Below the pieces are notes generated by a model. That model made no database searches. It had not been told where the DNA came from and worked only from the letters and a program-made list of their open reading frames with translations. A stretch of 40,353 nt of DNA from a virus, in the IMG/VR virus record IMGVR_UViG_3300021387_000033, positions 1 to 40,353 of that record; one strand, 5' to 3'. Of this stretch, positions 28,713 to 32,399 are shown piece after piece. The translations under genes were made by a program, and so were the position numbers. The stretch's first letter is position 1. Each line of letters starts with the position of its first letter.

Positions 28713-28900
28713 TGTAAAATTATATTTTTAATTTCATAGACACTATTTCTAAGCATCTTTTTAAATTTTATAAAATGTTCTACTTGCATAGGTTCACATA
28801 TAATTATTGTTTTAGTTTTCTCGTTGTAATAAATTTCATAAATTAAATTTTCATAAACTCTTTTCAAATCTTTGTTATCCCATATAGTTATCTTCTTCAT
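28709..28900 (-). CDS. Hypothetical protein (63 aa), first gene after the RNA array
   Basis: Supplied ORF with a GGAAGG RBS. Confidence 0.55.
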   Translation of the reverse strand: MKKITIWDNKDLKRVYENLIYEIYYNEKTKTIIICEPMQVEHFIKFKKMLRNSVYEIKNIILQ

Positions 28901-28920
28901 AAAAATACCTTCCTATCTTA

Positions 28921-29046
28921 TAAAAAAACAAGGCACTTACATTACGTGCTCTACCATTCTGAGCTATTTATCATACTGATAAAGTTGGAATCGAACCAAC
29001 GACACCGAGGTTACAAGCCTAAGTATTTATTTGCTGAATGTGCCTT
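28921..29046 (-). ncRNA. tRNA-like domain B: circularly permuted tRNA-Thr(UGU)-like, closed by the stem AAGGCAC/GUGCCUU plus U7
   Basis: Minus-strand order is: anticodon arm (29022-29006, loop CUUGUAA), variable GUGUC, T arm GUUGG-UUCGAUU-CCAAC (29000-28984), acceptor hairpin UUUAUCA-GUA-UGAUAAA (28983-28967), UA, D arm GCUC-AGAAUGGUA-GAGC (28964-28948). Confidence 0.7.
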
Positions 29047-29069
29047 TATATTATTTATTTATTAAACAA

Positions 29070-29169
29070 GACTCATTATTTTAGTAATCTCTTAATCCTC
29101 TTGAGTATATGAAATTATCATAGTTGGAGTTGAACCAACGAATATTACTTAACTTTTGCTGTACGAGTC
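29070..29169 (-). ncRNA. tRNA-like domain A: YrlA-style permuted tRNA mimic without an anticodon loop
   Basis: AGUAA-UAUUC-[GUUGG UUCAACU CCAAC]-[UAUGA UAAUU UCAUA]-UA-[CUC AAGAGGAUUAA GAG]-A-UUACU, closed by an outer stem GACUC/GAGUC. Confidence 0.7.
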
Positions 29170-29261
29170 TTTAATTTATTTTCTTTTTAAACAAGGCTAT
29201 CTAATAATCCAAATTAACAGCTTGGGACAAATATTGGTTGTCAAAATAGTTGCAGTAATAG

Positions 29262-29378
29262 CCTTTATTTTAATGAATACCATAGAATAGATATAATAGA
29301 TAGCAACGTCCATAACCCACGCTATCATAAGGTTTTAAGGCTTATATATCTACTCTACGCTACCCATTAAAGGATAGC
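29262..29378 (-). ncRNA. X module copy b
   Basis: H1 is GCUAUCC-UUUAAU-GGGUAGC. H2 is GUAGAGUAGAUAUA / UAUAUCUAUUCUAU. Tail is GGUAUUC-AUUAAA, complementary to the H1 loop. Confidence 0.6.
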
Positions 29379-29419
29379 AGTAAAATAACGAACTACATTT
29401 AATTGAAGTGCAAATTCCA

Positions 29420-29600
29420 AACTAAGATGCACCACGAAATATATGTTTTGGAGATAATGGTATAAAAATGATAAATTGTGCGACAAATACCAAAACAATA
29501 AAAAACATAAATAGATAAAAACAATAATATGCATGAATACATTAATTTAATAAAATACCATTATAACATATATTTCGTGCTTCACCTTAATTGGTCAAGC
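29420..29600 (-). ncRNA. X module copy e
   Basis: H1 is GCUUGACC-AAUUAA-GGUGAAGC. H2 is ACGAAAUAUAUGUU+AUAAUGGUAU paired with AUACCAUUAU-(CUCCAA bulge)-AACAUAUAUUUCGU. Tail is GGUGCAUC-UUAGUU, complementary to the loop AAUUAA. Confidence 0.6.
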
Positions 29601-29643
29601 ACTTTCTTGTATCCTGCAAGTTAAGGATTGCAATTTCCTAGTA

Positions 29644-29776
29644 CTTTAATAAGCACCACCTAATAGATAAATAATTTAAACTATGTAATCACCACAAAAT
29701 ATAGTTCAGGAAAAATATAAATTTGCCCATTCTTTTTATTATATTTATCTACTAGGTGCTACCAATTAAGGTAGCA
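29644..29776 (-). ncRNA. X module copy a
   Basis: H1 is UGCUACC-UUAAUU-GGUAGCA. H2 is CCUAGUAGAUAAAUA / UAUUUAUCUAUUAGG. Tail is UGGUGCUU-AUUAA. Confidence 0.6.
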
Positions 29777-29800
29777 AAATATTAATTATAAAAGGTGAAC

Positions 29801-29881
29801 AAAGGACTTTCTATCTTCATTAGCAGTGAAGTGCAATTTAGTTCCCAAAACTAACGCTTTTTGTTTGCTGTATTGTCCTTT
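29801..29881 (-). ncRNA. 5' domain closed by AAAGGAC/GUCCUUU and containing an anticodon-stem-loop mimic
   Basis: CUUCA-CUGCUAA-UGAAG (29831-29815) has the canonical C32 U33 NNN A37 A38 loop format. A second hairpin is UUAGUU-UUGGG-AACUAA. Confidence 0.45.
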
Positions 29882-29904
29882 TAAGTAACTTAATTGTAAC
29901 ACTT

Positions 29905-31290
29905 TTATTCTTTATAATCAATATCTTTTTTATATTTTTCTAGAATCTTGTCAATATATGTTGTCATATCAAAGTTGTTTTCTAGTAATTTTAATATTTG
30001 TAAATTATAACCACTTAAGTAAATGTTTCCATATTCGTCAAATTCTGGAACTGTCTTATTTCTATCATTAAAATTCCACCAAATTAATTTTGTATTAGCT
30101 TCGTGTTGTTTAAAGATATTCATTAATTCTTCCTTGCTTTGACGTGAACCATAATCAAATTCCATATCACTCATTACGATTATATATTCAGGATATTTTT
30201 TTAATCCTTTTAATAAATCCATAACTTTACCAAAATCAGTATTTGAACAATCTCCAGTATACATTGAATCATATTGTTCTTTTAATGTATTACCTTTAAT
30301 TGTCATTAATTGAGGATTTGATGAGAATGATATTAATTGATTTGGTGCATAAGTAGAATGAGTAGCTAATGCGTGACATACTGACATAGCTCTTACTCCA
30401 ATATCGTTTGGATTAGAATAATCTCTTCCATAAAAACTAGAATACATTGAACCTGAAGTGTCTAAAACACAAATAGCGTTCATTTCTACTCCTAAAGTAG
30501 CATTATCTACTATTTTCTTTCCAATAATATCATTAGCTTCTGCGTTAGATTTTGTTGCTGTCTTATATGCGTCGTGTACGTTTGCAGTAGCTACATTTAC
30601 TTTAGCCTCATTATTCTTAACTTTTTCTATATATTCTTTAAATCTAGGAGAAATATCTTCTCTAGTGTTAAATGTATTTAAATATTTAGTCATTGCAAGA
30701 GAAGGTACTTCTTCGAAATCAATTTCTCCAACTAATGGGTGAACATAATTACCTTGCTTAAATAATTCATTTAATGGAGTTCCTTCTACTTCTTCAGCAT
30801 AAGATAATTTATATTCAACTGTTGAATCGGTTTTAATTAATTTTCTATATTCTTTTTCAGTTATTCCCCACATTTTACATAATGCTTTAGCAATTCTTTT
30901 ATCTTTACCAGTTAATCTAGGCATCCATTTTTTAGCTAATTCATTACCAGTTAATGAAGTTTTTAAAAATGCAATATTTTCATCAGTAGGAATATGCCAT
31001 AAATCGTCATATCTACCAGCTCTTACTACATTGTAAGGTTCTACTTCTGATAATTCCATTAACTTTCTACCTAAATCTCTTCTACCTAAACCAAATCTAG
31101 GGTCTCTAACAAACATTGAAAATAATTTTTCTTTTTCAGATTTTCCAATTTTTACTTCGTCTAAGTTCTTTTCGAAAAATGGAGTCATAAAGAATAAGTC
31201 AGTTAAATTATTTCCTGTAGTCTTATAAGCTACGTCTCCATTTTCAGTTCTTTTTGTGTTTAATATTTTTTGTAATTCATTCATTTTCAT
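29905..31290 (-). CDS. DUF2828-type TROVE/vWA-like protein (461 aa)
   Basis: N-terminal RTENGDVAYKTTGNNLTDLFF, central EVPSLAMTKYLNTF, C-terminal vWA with a MIDAS-like VLDTSGS. Family assignment is from memory of DUF2828 signatures. Confidence 0.6.
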   Translation of the reverse strand: MKMNELQKILNTKRTENGDVAYKTTGNNLTDLFFMTPFFEKNLDEVKIGKSEKEKLFSMFVRDPRFGLGRRDLGRKLMELSEVEPYNVVRAGRYDDLWHIPTDENIAFLKTSLTGNELAKKWMPRLTGKDKRIAKALCKMWGITEKEYRKLIKTDSTVEYKLSYAEEVEGTPLNELFKQGNYVHPLVGEIDFEEVPSLAMTKYLNTFNTREDISPRFKEYIEKVKNNEAKVNVATANVHDAYKTATKSNAEANDIIGKKIVDNATLGVEMNAICVLDTSGSMYSSFYGRDYSNPNDIGVRAMSVCHALATHSTYAPNQLISFSSNPQLMTIKGNTLKEQYDSMYTGDCSNTDFGKVMDLLKGLKKYPEYIIVMSDMEFDYGSRQSKEELMNIFKQHEANTKLIWWNFNDRNKTVPEFDEYGNIYLSGYNLQILKLLENNFDMTTYIDKILEKYKKDIDYKE

Positions 31291-31477
31291 TCTCTCCTTC
31301 TTTTTTTACAAATTCATCATCATATATATCTTCGTCCCATTTTCTTTCATCGTCTAATGTTTTAGGGTCTAAATTTTTATATTCCTCTTCTCTACTGCAC
31401 TTTCCTGATACAATGCAAGGTGCAATAACTAGAATAAATATTAATAAAATAGCTAATATTATTAAAAATATTTCCAT
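31277..31477 (-). CDS. Small membrane protein with an acidic tail (66 aa)
   Basis: Supplied ORF with an N-terminal TM helix. Confidence 0.55.
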   Translation of the reverse strand: MEIFLIILAILLIFILVIAPCIVSGKCSREEEYKNLDPKTLDDERKWDEDIYDDEFVKKEGENENE

Positions 31478-31815
31478 TATTTATCACAATTTACCTTATC
31501 TATTATTTCATTTACTTTATTAAATAAATCCCACACTTTATTTTCTTTTGTTAAATTACTAAAATCTAAATAATCTATGGATTCTATCTTCTTATCTTCT
31601 TTTGGTGTATCTTCTATTATTTCTACTTCATAATGTAACATATTATCTAATACTAAATCTTCACCTAATATATGGCATATTCCATAAGACCATCTTGTAT
31701 ATTGTTTAGTTAATTGATTAAATTCATATTCATAAATTGAACATTTTATTTTATTGGGTACTTCTTCACCATTTGCTATTTTATTTAATAAATCTATTAC
31801 TTTGATTTTTTTCAT
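31477..31815 (-). CDS. Paralogue family 1 member (112 aa; MKKIKVIDLLNKIAN ... EDTPKEDKKIE ... IIDKVN)
   Basis: Shares its N-terminus, central motif and C-terminus with 33239..33598 and 34114..34458. Confidence 0.65.
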   Translation of the reverse strand: MKKIKVIDLLNKIANGEEVPNKIKCSIYEYEFNQLTKQYTRWSYGICHILGEDLVLDNMLHYEVEIIEDTPKEDKKIESIDYLDFSNLTKENKVWDLFNKVNEIIDKVNCDK

Positions 31816-31816
31816 A

Positions 31817-32056
31817 TCATTTTTCTCCTTTATAATATTGTTGTACTTCTATCGGTACTAAACATTCTATATGTCTTGTATTTCCATTGTAATAACATTT
31901 ATTACTGTGCCCTGAATTATTATTAGTATCTATATAATAATAATCATTTTTTATTAAAGTAAACATTACAGTTGTTACATATAAGAATATTACTAACCAT
32001 ATAGCACTAGCCATTGATACTTTTTTATTTAAAAACTTTTCTATCTTTTTTCTCAT
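31817..32056 (-). CDS. Membrane-anchored protein (79 aa)
   Basis: Supplied ORF with a TM helix. Confidence 0.55.
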   Translation of the reverse strand: MRKKIEKFLNKKVSMASAIWLVIFLYVTTVMFTLIKNDYYYIDTNNNSGHSNKCYYNGNTRHIECLVPIEVQQYYKGEK

Positions 32057-32262
32057 ATTATTTGTTTGTCTTCCTTAATATCTAATCCTACATTTTTAAA
32101 TAATTTTTCGGCTTTTCCAGAACAATATATACAATTTCCTTCTTTATCATATAAAGTCATTCTATGGCACTTATTGCATCTATGTTTAGGGAAGCGACCA
32201 CCAATGAATCTACCTATTACTATTTCTTGATTTTTCTTTATCTTTCTAGCAAAATTACTCAT
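32053..32262 (-). CDS. Zinc-ribbon protein (69 aa)
   Basis: CNKCH...CIYC. Confidence 0.55.
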   Translation of the reverse strand: MSNFARKIKKNQEIVIGRFIGGRFPKHRCNKCHRMTLYDKEGNCIYCSGKAEKLFKNVGLDIKEDKQII

Positions 32263-32399
32263 TTTTTCCTCTTTTCTAGTTTCTTATAACCATAAAGCAT
32301 ATTATATTCGTTTCGTAGTTCTTTAATTTCTTTTTTAGTTTGTTTTATAAGTTCAGATTTTAAATAAATTAATTGTTTGATTTCTTTTTCTCTATTCAT
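32259..32399 (-). CDS. Small ORF (46 aa, MNREKEIKQL...), not in the track
   Basis: Hand translated. ATGA overlap with the downstream gene. Confidence 0.4.
   Translation of the reverse strand: MNREKEIKQLIYLKSELIKQTKKEIKELRNEYNMLYGYKKLEKRKK

What the first reader, a model, noticed from the sequence alone, without database searches (positions are those of the whole stretch)
29070..29169. Second permuted tRNA mimic lacking an anticodon loop (YrlA-like topology)
Minus strand:
- GACUC, then a linker;
- AGUAA, the 3' strand of an anticodon-like stem;
- UAUUC, a variable loop;
- GUUGG-UUCAACU-CCAAC, a T arm with the same stem sequence as domain B;
- UAUGA-UAAUU-UCAUA, a closed acceptor-like hairpin;
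- UA;
- CUC-AAGAGGAUUAA-GAG, a D arm with GG;
- A;
- UUACU, the 5' strand of the anticodon-like stem;
- an internal loop, then GAGUC.

The anticodon-stem equivalent continues through an internal loop into an outer helix. Published YrlA tRNA-like domains are described the same way: no free CCA end and a kinked anticodon-stem equivalent.

Two tandem mimics sharing a T stem suggest duplication and divergence.
Basis: seen in the sequence. Interest (0 to 1): 0.8.

Follow-up and report, generated by a model that had tools for sequence, protein, structure and literature searches.

The report
Phage tRNA-shaped Y-RNA-like module
This stretch encodes a small RNA folded like a tRNA with a sealed acceptor end and no anticodon loop, one of four "handle-framed" RNAs lying just downstream of a phage gene for a Ro60-like ring protein; it resembles bacterial Y RNAs but uses a different, undescribed handle.

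Summary
A covariance model built only from unrelated homologues finds the region at 53.5 bits (E about 6e-10).

It is a real tRNA mimic in the order T arm, closed acceptor hairpin, U8-A9, D arm, with a two-strand anticodon-stem equivalent. Across 26 related modules all stems covary. The 15:48 Levitt pair switches between G:C and A:U in 27 of 29 modules.

The module is the third of four RNAs downstream of a 461-aa gene whose predicted fold matches only Ro60 structures. Each RNA is closed by the same handle: an AAGNC... helix, ACAGCAA, then ...GNCUUG. I found 185 such modules next to homologous genes, against 7 on the opposite strand, spaced about 20 nt apart. Their payloads are permuted tRNAs, whole tRNAs or unrelated hairpins.

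Best reading: a Y-RNA-like partner of the phage Ro60-like protein. It is not a member of Rfam YrlA: it gives no hit, and the GNCGAA motif is absent from 0 of 151 modules. The "tandem duplication" idea is not supported. I rate it a new variant of a known kind.

The parts
29067..29171 (-). Whole module A (105 nt), the finding extended by 2-3 nt on each side to include the AAG...CUUG of the handle.
   Evidence: Frame scan, sequence, fold.
29163..29171 (-). 5' strand of the handle helix, AAGACUCGU. It pairs with 29076-29068.
   Evidence: 9 bp including one G-U. The helix sequence differs in nearly every module while staying complementary: 185 sense against 7 antisense matches.
29156..29162 (-). 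ACAGCAA, the most conserved single-stranded motif of the handle and the inferred protein-recognition element.
   Evidence: Position frequencies over 151 modules. The motif is retained at loci whose protein is only 41-44% identical.
29145..29149 (-). AGUAA, the 3'-side strand of the anticodon-stem equivalent (tRNA positions 39-43). It pairs with 29087-29083.
   Evidence: Equivalent helices with different sequences occur in L038 (AAUAA/UUAUU), L007 (CUCUU/AAGAG), L029 (UUGU/ACAA) and L040/L010/L001 (AUGU/ACAU, AUGU/GCAU, UAGU/GCUA).
29140..29144 (-). UAUUC, the variable-loop equivalent. Its last base, C48, is the Levitt partner of G15.
   Evidence: The 15:48 pair is compatible in 27 of 29 modules (19 G:C, 8 A:U), permutation p < 1e-5. 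In the alignment it is 96% paired.
29123..29139 (-). T arm, GUUGG-UUCAACU-CCAAC, carrying U54 U55 C56 A57 A58 and the G53:C61 pair.
   Evidence: The T stem is paired in 100% of cells, and 3 of its 5 pairs show changes on both sides.
29108..29122 (-). Closed acceptor-like hairpin, UAUGA-UAAUU-UCAUA. It begins directly after the T stem, allowing coaxial stacking.
   Evidence: 93% of cells are paired and all 7 aligned pairs show changes on both sides. The L001 allele has TATAAT/ATTATA instead.
29106..29107 (-). UA, the equivalent of tRNA U8-A9.
   Evidence: UA is found in 27 of 29 P-type modules.
29089..29105 (-). D arm, CUC-AAGAGGAUUAA-GAG. It has a 3-bp stem and carries A14, G15, G18, G19 and A21.
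   Evidence: All 4 aligned D-stem pairs covary. The L001 allele has UCC/GGA, a compensatory change. A14 is invariant in 29 of 29 modules.
29083..29088 (-). A26 followed by UUACU, the 5'-side strand of the anticodon-stem equivalent (tRNA positions 27-31).
29067..29076 (-). 3' strand of the handle helix, AUGAGUCUU, plus the conserved G (CUUG).
28929..29046 (-). Module B, the sister permuted tRNA mimic. It has a 7-nt anticodon-like 'V' hairpin loop (CUUGUAA), a 7-bp closed acceptor and a 4-bp D stem, in the same handle type.
   Evidence: Rfam YrlA 48.3 bits, E 1.7e-9, below the gathering score of 69. Leave-out model 62.9 bits.
29192..29265 (-). Module C: the same handle (AAGGCUAUU-ACUGCAA ... AUAGCCUUG) with a payload that is not tRNA-like.
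29800..29881 (-). Module 1: the same handle with a GUUUUGGGAAC hairpin payload. It is the first RNA after the protein gene.
29905..31290 (-). Gene for a 461-aa Ro60-like protein: a helical-repeat domain plus a vWA domain. It is the inferred protein partner of the handle.
   Evidence: Pfam DUF7788 1.3e-13, DUF2828 8.8e-10, vWA_Ro60 3.3e-4. PHROG 850 'RNA-binding protein' 1.4e-50. The AlphaFold2 model (pLDDT 76.6) has all 11 top Foldseek PDB hits in Ro60 structures, E 2e-7 to 1e-5.
29893..29921 (-). Promoter-like site with an extended -10 (TTGATT-17-TG-TACAAT). It overlaps the stop codon of the Ro60-like gene and lies just upstream of module 1.
   Evidence: An equivalent TGnTAYAAT element follows the stop codon in most related loci (by inspection).

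Best explanation
Module A is most likely a non-coding RNA of about 105 nt, transcribed with its neighbours from the promoter that follows the Ro60-like gene. It has two functional halves.

1. A handle. This is a 7-9 bp terminal helix beginning AAGNC, the single-stranded motif ACAGCAA on the 5' side, and ...GNCUU-G on the 3' side. All modules of the array share it. I infer that it is the docking site for the phage's Ro60-like ring protein, by analogy with the Y RNA stem.

2. A payload that folds into an L-shaped tRNA body. It comprises a T arm stacked on a sealed 5-bp acceptor hairpin, U8-A9, a D arm with G18 G19, and a G15:C48 Levitt pair. Its anticodon stem is made of the two strands that lead back to the handle, so it has no anticodon loop and no free CCA end.

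The RNA therefore cannot be charged or decode. It can present a tRNA 'elbow' to proteins that recognise tRNA shape.

Inferred mechanism: like bacterial YrlA, it tethers the Ro60-like ring to, or titrates, a host factor that recognises tRNA shape. The different payloads of the array would give one protein several specificities.

Shown here: the structure, its conservation and covariation, the handle, the array, and the linkage to a gene for a protein with the Ro60 fold.

Inferred only: transcription and RNA ends, binding of the handle by the protein, and the identity of the tRNA-side partner.
For: **Structure**
- All helices are present.
- The leave-out covariance model scores 53.5 bits, E about 6e-10.
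- In 26 aligned cores, 88% of cells are paired against 59.6% in shuffles (0 of 500 shuffles reach the observed value), and about 31-44% (30.8-44.1%) when partners are slid. Twenty of 22 pairs show changes on both sides.
- The Levitt pair covaries in 27 of 29 modules, p < 1e-5; UA (the U8-A9 equivalent) is present in 27 of 29; A14 in 29 of 29.
- The nearly identical phage L001 carries compensatory changes in the D stem and the acceptor hairpin.

**Handle and array**
- 185 sense-strand against 7 antisense frame matches, clustered beside the protein gene.
- Median spacer 20 nt, with 78% of spacers between 17 and 25 nt.
- ACAGCAA persists at loci whose protein is only 41-44% identical.

**Protein**
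- Pfam and PHROG hits.
- The Foldseek top 11 hits are all Ro60 structures: human, Xenopus, D. radiodurans Rsr and Thermus phage phiLo.

**Analogy with known systems**
- YrlA RNAs lie within 4 kb of Ro60 on the same strand and have V, T, AS and D stem-loops with Levitt covariation (PMC4201824).
- Phage phiLo Ro60 binds phage Y-like RNAs and host PNPase (PMC12135203).
- YrlA is the best Rfam match for sister modules, at 25.8-48.3 bits.
Against: - There are no expression, RNA-end or binding data.
- The handle lacks the GNCGAAN0-1G/CGAA motif thought to contact Ro60: 0 of 151 modules have it.
- The protein resembles Ro60 only at fold level (TM 0.36-0.46, model pTM 0.56). Profile searches of PDB sequences find nothing.
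- Module A itself has a short 5-bp acceptor and a 3-bp D stem. Minimum-free-energy folding does not recover the D arm.
- The payload is not conserved among the closest relatives. L043, whose protein is 98% identical, has an unrelated 83-nt payload in the same frame. This particular module is therefore replaceable.
- The same handle also frames apparently complete tRNAs, which could instead indicate a role in processing.
Confidence: 0.6

Rival explanations
1. A free-standing tRNA decoy or sponge. The array makes tRNA-shaped RNAs that soak up host tRNA-targeting defence nucleases or tRNA-modifying and processing enzymes during infection. The Ro60-like protein is not needed for this. The handle only stabilises the RNA ends.
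For: - Payloads turn over very fast inside identical frames: window against L001 shows 265/266 identical flanking bases and 27/27 frame bases, but only 53/78 core bases plus 13 gapped positions. L043 has a different payload. This pattern fits an arms race.
- Many sister modules carry a 7-nt hairpin loop with the anticodon-loop signature YU-NNN-AA.
- Whole tRNAs with unusual A34 anticodons sit in the same frames.
Against: - Module A has no anticodon loop and no free 3' end, so it cannot bait anticodon nucleases or toxins that act on the acceptor end.
- The strict linkage and shared strand with the Ro60-like gene, and a handle motif conserved across deep protein divergence, argue for a dedicated protein partner.
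Confidence: 0.15
2. A processing or punctuation cassette. The handle is a leader-trailer duplex, and the tRNA-like folds are RNase P/Z-type recognition signals used to cut a polycistronic transcript into units. Permuted modules such as A would then be by-products or cis-acting stabilisers rather than trans-acting RNAs.
For: - Spacers are a regular 20 nt, and there appears to be one promoter per array.
- About 31 modules hold normal-order tRNAs scoring 43-62 bits on the Rfam tRNA model inside the same handle.
- M. smegmatis YrlA is cleaved by RNase P (PMC4201824).
Against: - 80 of 151 modules have no tRNA-like element at all, yet keep the handle.
- The sealed acceptor of module A offers no normal RNase P/Z substrate end.
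- Tertiary-contact nucleotides and the Levitt pair are preserved in permuted modules, which suggests selection on the folded product rather than on a cleavage site alone.
Confidence: 0.12
3. A decaying relic: a tRNA gene fragment or dimeric-tRNA junction with no function, or a genuine permuted tRNA gene that matures into a working tRNA through circularisation.
For: - The tRNA model gives a weak 14-16 bit hit on the T arm.
- Chen et al. 2014 note that dimeric tRNAs could potentially score in YrlA searches (PMC4201824). Several weaker R1 hits at other loci may be tandem tRNAs, but I did not check this.
Against: - Compensatory substitutions maintain every stem and the 15:48 tertiary pair, which is not how pseudogenes evolve.
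- The acceptor is closed by a 5-nt loop rather than being two adjacent tRNAs.
- There is no anticodon loop, so no functional tRNA can result from any processing route.
- ARAGORN finds no tRNA in the window.
Confidence: 0.04

Closest known systems
YrlA (Rfam RF02553), the tRNA-like Y RNA of Salmonella, Mycobacterium and mycobacteriophages (Chen et al. 2014, PMC4201824)
   Same: - It is encoded on the same strand within about 1 kb of a Ro60-type gene.
- The element order is (V), T arm, closed acceptor-like stem-loop, D arm.
- The anticodon-stem equivalent is made of two strands that lead to a terminal stem.
- tRNA tertiary nucleotides are conserved and the 15:48 Levitt pair covaries.
- There is no free CCA end.
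   Different: - The Rfam model gives no hit for module A and only 25.8-48.3 bits for sister modules, against a gathering score of 69.
- The GNCGAAN0-1G motif is absent. The handle here is an AAGNC helix, ACAGCAA, then GNCUUG.
- The modules come in arrays of 2-6 with 20-nt spacers and interchangeable payloads.
- The partner protein belongs to the DUF2828/DUF7788 family and matches Ro60 clearly only by predicted fold (plus a weak sub-threshold vWA_Ro60 Pfam hit).
- The V hairpin of sister modules mimics an anticodon loop.
Thermus phage phiLo Ro60 with Yrl1/Yrl2 (PMC12135203)
   Same: A phage-encoded Ro60-fold protein with more than one adjacent small RNA. That protein's structure, 9l5y, is the second-best fold match to the protein here.
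   Different: - The phiLo Yrl RNAs lie upstream of the gene.
- They were recognised by a CGAA bulge and a stem-bulge-stem shape.
- In the passages I read they are described by a CGAA bulge and stem-bulge-stem shape, not as tRNA-shaped.
Deinococcus radiodurans Yrn1 and metazoan Y RNAs
   Same: A modular design: a terminal stem that binds Ro60 plus an effector-binding module. Yrn1 tethers Rsr to PNPase.
   Different: - Yrn1 has only partial tRNA features, and metazoan Y RNAs have none.
- Their Ro-binding helix carries GGUCCGA-type sequences that are not present here.
Circularly permuted tRNA genes (for example in Cyanidioschyzon merolae) and two-piece permuted tmRNA
   Same: The 3' half of the tRNA body precedes the 5' half in the gene.
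   Different: Those genes are processed into functional molecules with open acceptor ends. Module A has a sealed acceptor and no anticodon loop, so it cannot become a tRNA.
Other tRNA-like structures (viral 3' TLS, MALAT1 mascRNA)
   Same: They mimic tRNA shape in order to recruit tRNA-recognising enzymes.
   Different: Those elements keep an accessible acceptor end for RNase P, CCA addition or aminoacylation. They are not framed by a protein-binding handle or linked to Ro60-type genes.

Membership tests
YrlA (Rfam RF02553; Chen et al. 2014) | Score at or above the Rfam gathering threshold of 69 bits. | tested here: not met
   Module A gives no YrlA match at E <= 10 in either a 1.1-kb or a 141-nt search. 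Module B scores 48.3 bits. Other P-type modules score 25.8-43.5 bits. No hit reaches gathering in 19 loci.
YrlA (Rfam RF02553; Chen et al. 2014) | The GNCGAAN0-1G motif near the 5' end, the presumed Ro60 contact. | tested here: not met
   The motif is found in 0 of 151 unique modules and nowhere in 28900-29905(-).
YrlA (Rfam RF02553; Chen et al. 2014) | T, acceptor-like (AS) and D stem-loops in that order, with tRNA-invariant nucleotides. | tested here: met
   Sequence, covariation, and UA, A14, GG and UUCRA conservation.
YrlA (Rfam RF02553; Chen et al. 2014) | Compensatory G15:C48 / A15:U48 Levitt pair. | tested here: met
   27 of 29 modules are compatible (19 G:C, 8 A:U), p < 1e-5. Module A has G15:C48.
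YrlA (Rfam RF02553; Chen et al. 2014) | Encoded within 4 kb of a Ro60 orthologue on the same strand. | tested here: inconclusive
   The strand is the same and the module lies about 750 nt downstream of a gene with the Ro60 fold. However, that gene belongs to the DUF2828/DUF7788 family. It is not an annotated TROVE orthologue, and orthology is not established.
YrlA (Rfam RF02553; Chen et al. 2014) | Bound by Ro60/Rsr, and modified by TruB and DusA. | not testable with these tools
   This needs RIP or EMSA and modification mapping.
Canonical tRNA | Open 7-bp acceptor stem with a 3' end, an anticodon arm with a 7-nt loop, and detection by tRNA finders. | tested here: not met
   ARAGORN finds 0 genes in the window. 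The Rfam tRNA model scores 14-16 bits against a gathering score of 29. The acceptor is closed by a 5-nt loop and there is no anticodon loop.
Functional circularly permuted tRNA gene | All tRNA parts are present, so that processing and ligation can regenerate a complete tRNA. | tested here: not met
   Module A has no anticodon loop.
Handle-framed RNA modules next to DUF2828-type Ro60-like genes (family defined here) | A terminal helix starting AA(G/A)NC, then 1-5 nt, then C(A/U)GCAA on the 5' side. The complementary strand ends in UU-G on the 3' side. | tested here: met
   Module A matches with a 9-bp helix. Across all loci there are 185 sense against 7 antisense matches.
Handle-framed RNA modules next to DUF2828-type Ro60-like genes (family defined here) | Membership of a same-strand array beside the protein gene, with spacers of about 20 nt. 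| tested here: met
   The window has four modules. Both spacers flanking module A are 20 nt. The family median is 20 nt.
Ro60/TROVE protein family (for the neighbouring gene) | A helical-repeat ring plus a vWA domain with the Ro60 fold. | tested here: inconclusive
   The Foldseek top 11 hits are all Ro60 structures, with probability 1.0 but TM only 0.36-0.46. Pfam vWA_Ro60 scores 21.1 bits, below its cut-off of 27.7. Sequence searches of the PDB find nothing.

The most novel reading that the evidence does not exclude
The locus may be a previously undescribed phage 'adaptor battery'. One Ro60-like ring protein would be served by an array of RNAs that all carry the same docking handle (helix plus ACAGCAA) but display swappable payloads: complete tRNAs, permuted tRNAs with or without an anticodon-like loop, and unrelated hairpins. 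The payloads are exchanged or diversified inside fixed frames on very short evolutionary timescales. That would be consistent with an arms race against host tRNA-targeting immunity or with retargeting of host RNA-decay machinery. Module A would be the 'elbow-only' member of the set.
Probability: 0.25. Interest if true: 0.85.

Novelty: new variant of a known kind. Interest (0 to 1): 0.62.

Why it matters
Y RNAs that mimic tRNA are known, but the function of the tRNA-like domain is still an open question. This family offers dozens of natural variants of that domain on one constant handle. They include variants with and without the anticodon-like hairpin, variants permuted at different points, and intact tRNAs, all beside a compact Ro60-like gene in small phages of gut Bacillota. 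That natural variation can be used to test directly which tRNA features matter, for example the elbow, the anticodon-like loop or the acceptor.

The family also extends Ro60/Y-RNA biology to a protein family (DUF2828/DUF7788) that is not annotated as TROVE, and to RNAs that the Rfam models do not detect. Such systems are therefore probably under-counted in viromes.

Finally, the payload turnover inside identical frames hints at conflict-driven evolution.

Tried and rejected
- ARAGORN on the window found no tRNA or tmRNA.
- Rfam at gathering thresholds found nothing in the window. It found no YrlA in 19 related loci.
- blastn against GenBank phages found no close relative. There were only short matches: Lak-phage hits inside the protein gene and tRNA T-arm hits in Bacillus phages.
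- An exact search for the module-A T arm plus acceptor in IMG/VR gave 0 hits.
- An exact search for the 17-nt 5' frame gave 7 hits. Six were chance matches inside coding sequence and one was the L001 contig.
- The single metagenome scan gave one new independent example (L038) and one copy of the L001 allele.
- Sequence and profile searches of the PDB with the protein found nothing. Only the fold comparison revealed Ro60.
- Literature searches for DUF2828, YrlA with phage, Y RNA-like with bacteriophage, and permuted tRNA with phage found no description of these arrays. The supplements of Chen et al. 2014 are not held.
- The 'recent tandem duplication of A and B' idea was rejected on pairwise identities.
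- The 'functional permuted tRNA gene' idea was rejected because there is no anticodon loop.
- I did not attempt a reverse search, from the generic handle pattern to the protein, because the expected number of chance matches in IMG/VR is too high.

Full report
**1. The observation**

On the minus strand, 29169-29070 reads GACUC ... With two or three more bases on each side, the outer helix becomes 9 bp: AAGACUCGU/AUGAGUCUU, spanning 29171-29163 with 29076-29068. Single-sequence folding keeps this helix, the AGUAAU/AUUACU helix and the acceptor hairpin. The centroid also keeps the T arm. The z-score is only -2.2, so thermodynamics alone is weak evidence. ARAGORN and Rfam at gathering thresholds report nothing. 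No ORF of 40 aa or more covers the element.

**2. The context**

Just upstream on the same strand lies a 461-aa ORF (29905-31290).
- It hits Pfam DUF7788, DUF2828 and, weakly, vWA_Ro60.
- It hits PHROG 850, annotated 'RNA-binding protein'.
- An AlphaFold2 model (pLDDT 76.6) has its 11 best Foldseek matches in the PDB all in Ro60 structures: human, Xenopus, D. radiodurans Rsr and Thermus phage phiLo. E-values run from 2e-7 to 1e-5, with TM scores of 0.36-0.46.

The window is a tailed-phage genome. It encodes terminase, portal, tail and endolysin proteins, and Erf, RecE-like, DnaD-like and methyltransferase functions. Homologues of the Ro60-like protein number more than 1,800. They occur on phage contigs of about 40 kb and in MAG contigs, most of them labelled Bacillota (Clostridia, Bacilli); several sample names indicate gut sources.

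**3. A shared handle and an array**

Between the ORF and the next gene, the minus strand carries four units closed by the same frame. The frame is AA(G/A)NC..., a 7-9 bp helix, a few nucleotides, C(A/U)GCAA, the payload, the complementary strand, and UU-G. The four units are at 29881-29800, 29265-29192, 29171-29067 (the finding) and 29046-28929. The two spacers that flank module A are 20 nt; modules 1 and C are about 530 nt apart.

The same scan was run over the related loci retrieved through the protein, plus two loci retrieved through a module-A DNA pattern.
- It gives 185 sense-strand matches against 7 antisense. The matches cluster beside the gene.
- 151 of the modules are unique in sequence.
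- The median spacer is 20 nt, and 78% of spacers are 17-25 nt.
- The helix sequence differs from module to module, while ACAGCAA persists even at loci whose protein is only 41-44% identical.

A promoter-like site with an extended -10 overlaps the ORF's stop codon.

Payloads fall into three classes.
- Permuted tRNA mimics ('P'): 29 complete and 11 partial.
- Normal-order tRNAs ('N'): about 31, scoring 43-62 bits on the Rfam tRNA model.
- Non-tRNA hairpins ('H'): 80.

**4. The tRNA-like core is under selection**

I aligned 26 P-type cores and counted pairs on the proposed structure.
- 88% of cells form standard pairs, against 59.6% in shuffles (0 of 500 reach the observed value) and about 31-44% (30.8-44.1%) when partners are slid.
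- The T stem is 100% paired, the acceptor hairpin 93% and the D stem 89%.
- 20 of 22 pairs show changes on both sides.
- The acceptor hairpin always starts directly after the T stem. UA, the U8-A9 equivalent, follows it in 27 of 29 modules. A14 is invariant.
- The tertiary Levitt pair is G15:C48 in 19 modules and A15:U48 in 8, giving 27 of 29 compatible, permutation p < 1e-5.

A covariance model built without the window or its close relatives still finds module A at 53.5 bits (E about 6e-10) and module B at 62.9 bits. Nothing else in the window scores above 17 bits. The nearly identical phage L001 differs from the window almost only inside module A, and the changes are compensatory: the D stem is CUC/GAG in the window and UCC/GGA in L001, and the acceptor is UAUGA/UCAUA against UAUAAU/AUUAUA.

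**5. What is particular about module A**

About 20 of the 29 P-type modules have a hairpin 6-7 nt upstream of the T stem with a 7-nt loop, often of the anticodon-loop form YU-NNN-AA. Module B's loop is CUUGUAA. Module A has no such hairpin.

Instead, the segment before its variable loop pairs with the segment after its D arm, AGUAA(U)/(A)UUACU. This forms a 5-6 bp anticodon-stem equivalent that runs through an internal loop into the handle.

The inner two pairs of this closing helix are conserved and covary across the family. They are paired in 25 of 26 and 23 of 26 sequences, with 4 pair types each. Helices of 4-5 bp with unrelated sequences recur in L038 (AAUAA/UUAUU), L007 (CUCUU/AAGAG) and L029 (UUGU/ACAA), and 4-bp helices (counting the 26:44-equivalent pair) in the 3-bp-D-stem subfamily.

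Module A belongs to that subfamily. It is 72% identical to the L001 allele and 65-66% identical to L040 and L010. It is only 49% identical to module B's ortholog. A and B are therefore old paralogues, not a local tandem duplication. Their shared GUUGG/CCAAC T stem is simply the family consensus.

The payload slot is unusually plastic. Between the window and L001, 265 of 266 upstream bases and 27 of 27 frame bases are identical, but only 53 of 78 core bases, with 13 gapped positions. L047 carries the window allele with a single D-loop change. L043, whose protein is 98% identical, carries an unrelated 83-nt payload in the same frame.

**6. Comparison with known families**

The closest known family is YrlA. 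It is encoded on the same strand within 4 kb of Ro60, it has V, T, AS and D stem-loops, it shows Levitt covariation, and it was reported in 254 bacteria and 22 phages with annotated TROVE genes (PMC4201824).

Module A shares that topology but fails the membership tests.
- RF02553 gives no hit for module A, even in a 141-nt search.
- RF02553 gives 25.8-48.3 bits for sister modules, against a gathering score of 69.
- The GNCGAAN0-1G motif occurs in 0 of 151 modules.

Phage Ro60 with Y-like RNAs and recruitment of host PNPase has been shown for Thermus phage phiLo (PMC12135203). I found no paper in the held library describing DUF2828-linked arrays or this handle.

**7. Mechanism**

The best-supported reading, at confidence about 0.6, is a Y-RNA-like RNA. 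The handle would dock the Ro60-like ring. The placement of ACAGCAA just 3' of the 5' strand of the helix parallels where Ro60 contacts Y RNAs. The sealed tRNA body without an anticodon would present a tRNA elbow to a factor that recognises tRNA shape, either tethering or titrating it.

The structure, its conservation and the genomic linkage are shown here. Transcription, binding and the partner's identity are inferred.

The rival readings are as follows.
- A protein-independent tRNA decoy, confidence 0.15. It is favoured by the payload turnover. It is disfavoured for module A, which has no anticodon loop and no free end.
- A processing or punctuation cassette, confidence 0.12. It is favoured by the framed whole tRNAs and the regular spacing. 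It is disfavoured by the 80 non-tRNA payloads and by the conserved tertiary pairs.
- A relic or a functional permuted tRNA gene, confidence 0.04. It is contradicted by the covariation and by the missing anticodon loop.

**8. Verdict**

It is a new variant of a known kind: a Y-RNA-type tRNA mimic with a different handle, arranged in an array, and partnered with a divergent Ro60-like protein family.

Limits of this analysis:
- Most loci were collected through the protein, so the association has been tested from protein to RNA and not in the reverse direction.
- Close alleles of module A are few.
- The protein model is of moderate confidence.
- Nothing here demonstrates expression.

Noticed in passing
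window 2882-3025 (+), 29375-29270 (-), 29775-29640 (-): There are three copies of another structured-RNA-like motif. It consists of a 5' hairpin GCUAYC-UUAAUNGG-GUAGC, then AGUAGAUA..., which pairs over a long range with ...UAUCUAUUCUAUGGUG-CUUAUUAAA. The pattern GGTAGC-N4-AGTAGATA occurs 3 times against 0.21 expected by chance. Copies also lie inside the arrays of L001, L002 and L006. The copy at 2973-3041 contains a T-arm-like GUAGGUUCGACACCUAC and gives a weak 17-bit hit to my model. There is no Rfam match apart from a chance mir-577 hairpin hit.
   Followed up: partly
window 29800-29881 (-) and 29192-29265 (-): Two further handle-framed modules have non-tRNA payloads, and those payloads are themselves conserved across phages. 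One is a GUUUUGGGAA(C) hairpin, usually in the first array position. The other is a CCAA(G/A)CUGUUAAUUUGG hairpin. Similar payloads recur in L005, L007, L009-L013 and L040.
   Followed up: partly
L010 5548-5652, L009 5343-5464, L040 2155-2257, L013 3189-3291, L015 4174-4273 and others: Apparently complete, normal-order tRNAs are embedded inside the same handle (Rfam tRNA 41-62 bits). At least L010 does not encode CCA. ARAGORN assigns some of them unusual A34 anticodons, for example Asp-AUC and Cys-ACA. These modules prefer the C-U-GCA variant of the handle motif: 18 of 31, against 2 of 29 in permuted modules.
   Followed up: partly
module-A slot: window 29067-29171 compared with L001 6364-6481, L043 5012-5094 and L047 2249-2353: The payload is hypervariable inside an identical frame among phages whose Ro60-like proteins are 97-99% identical. 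There are three different alleles, one of them structurally unrelated.
   Followed up: yes
P-type modules of L002, L005, L006, L008, L014, L051, L055, L063, L070 and window module B (29024-29012): The hairpin upstream of the T arm, the 'V' position of YrlA, has a 7-nt loop with the anticodon-loop signature YU-NNN-AA. Examples are CUUGUAA, CUGCUAA, CUGAUAA, CUGGUAA, UUGUUAA and CUGAAAA. The middle triplets vary as if different anticodons were being displayed.
   Followed up: partly
L038 (metagenome contig AUXO015488873.1, 2481 nt): A module whose 17-nt 5' frame is identical to module A's, but whose core is different, sits among genuine tRNAs and next to a group I intron (Rfam 78.4 bits). It is unknown whether a Ro60-like gene is nearby, because the contig is too short.
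   Followed up: no
window 29534-29367 (-) and 29566-29556 (-): A second extended -10-like element (TGTTATAAT) and a 55-aa ORF with no family match lie in the middle of the RNA array, between module 1 and module C.
   Followed up: no
L044 1989-2516 and L045 932-1459, compared with the window at about 31300-32300: The closest relatives carry an HNH/NUMOD homing-endonuclease gene a few genes upstream of the Ro60-like gene. I did not check whether the window has it.
   Followed up: no
L057 and L058 (same 109-kb MAG contig CALVKK010000001.1): Two copies of the Ro60-like gene, each with its RNA array, lie about 36 kb apart on one Bacilli MAG contig. This suggests two related prophages or a duplication.
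   Followed up: no
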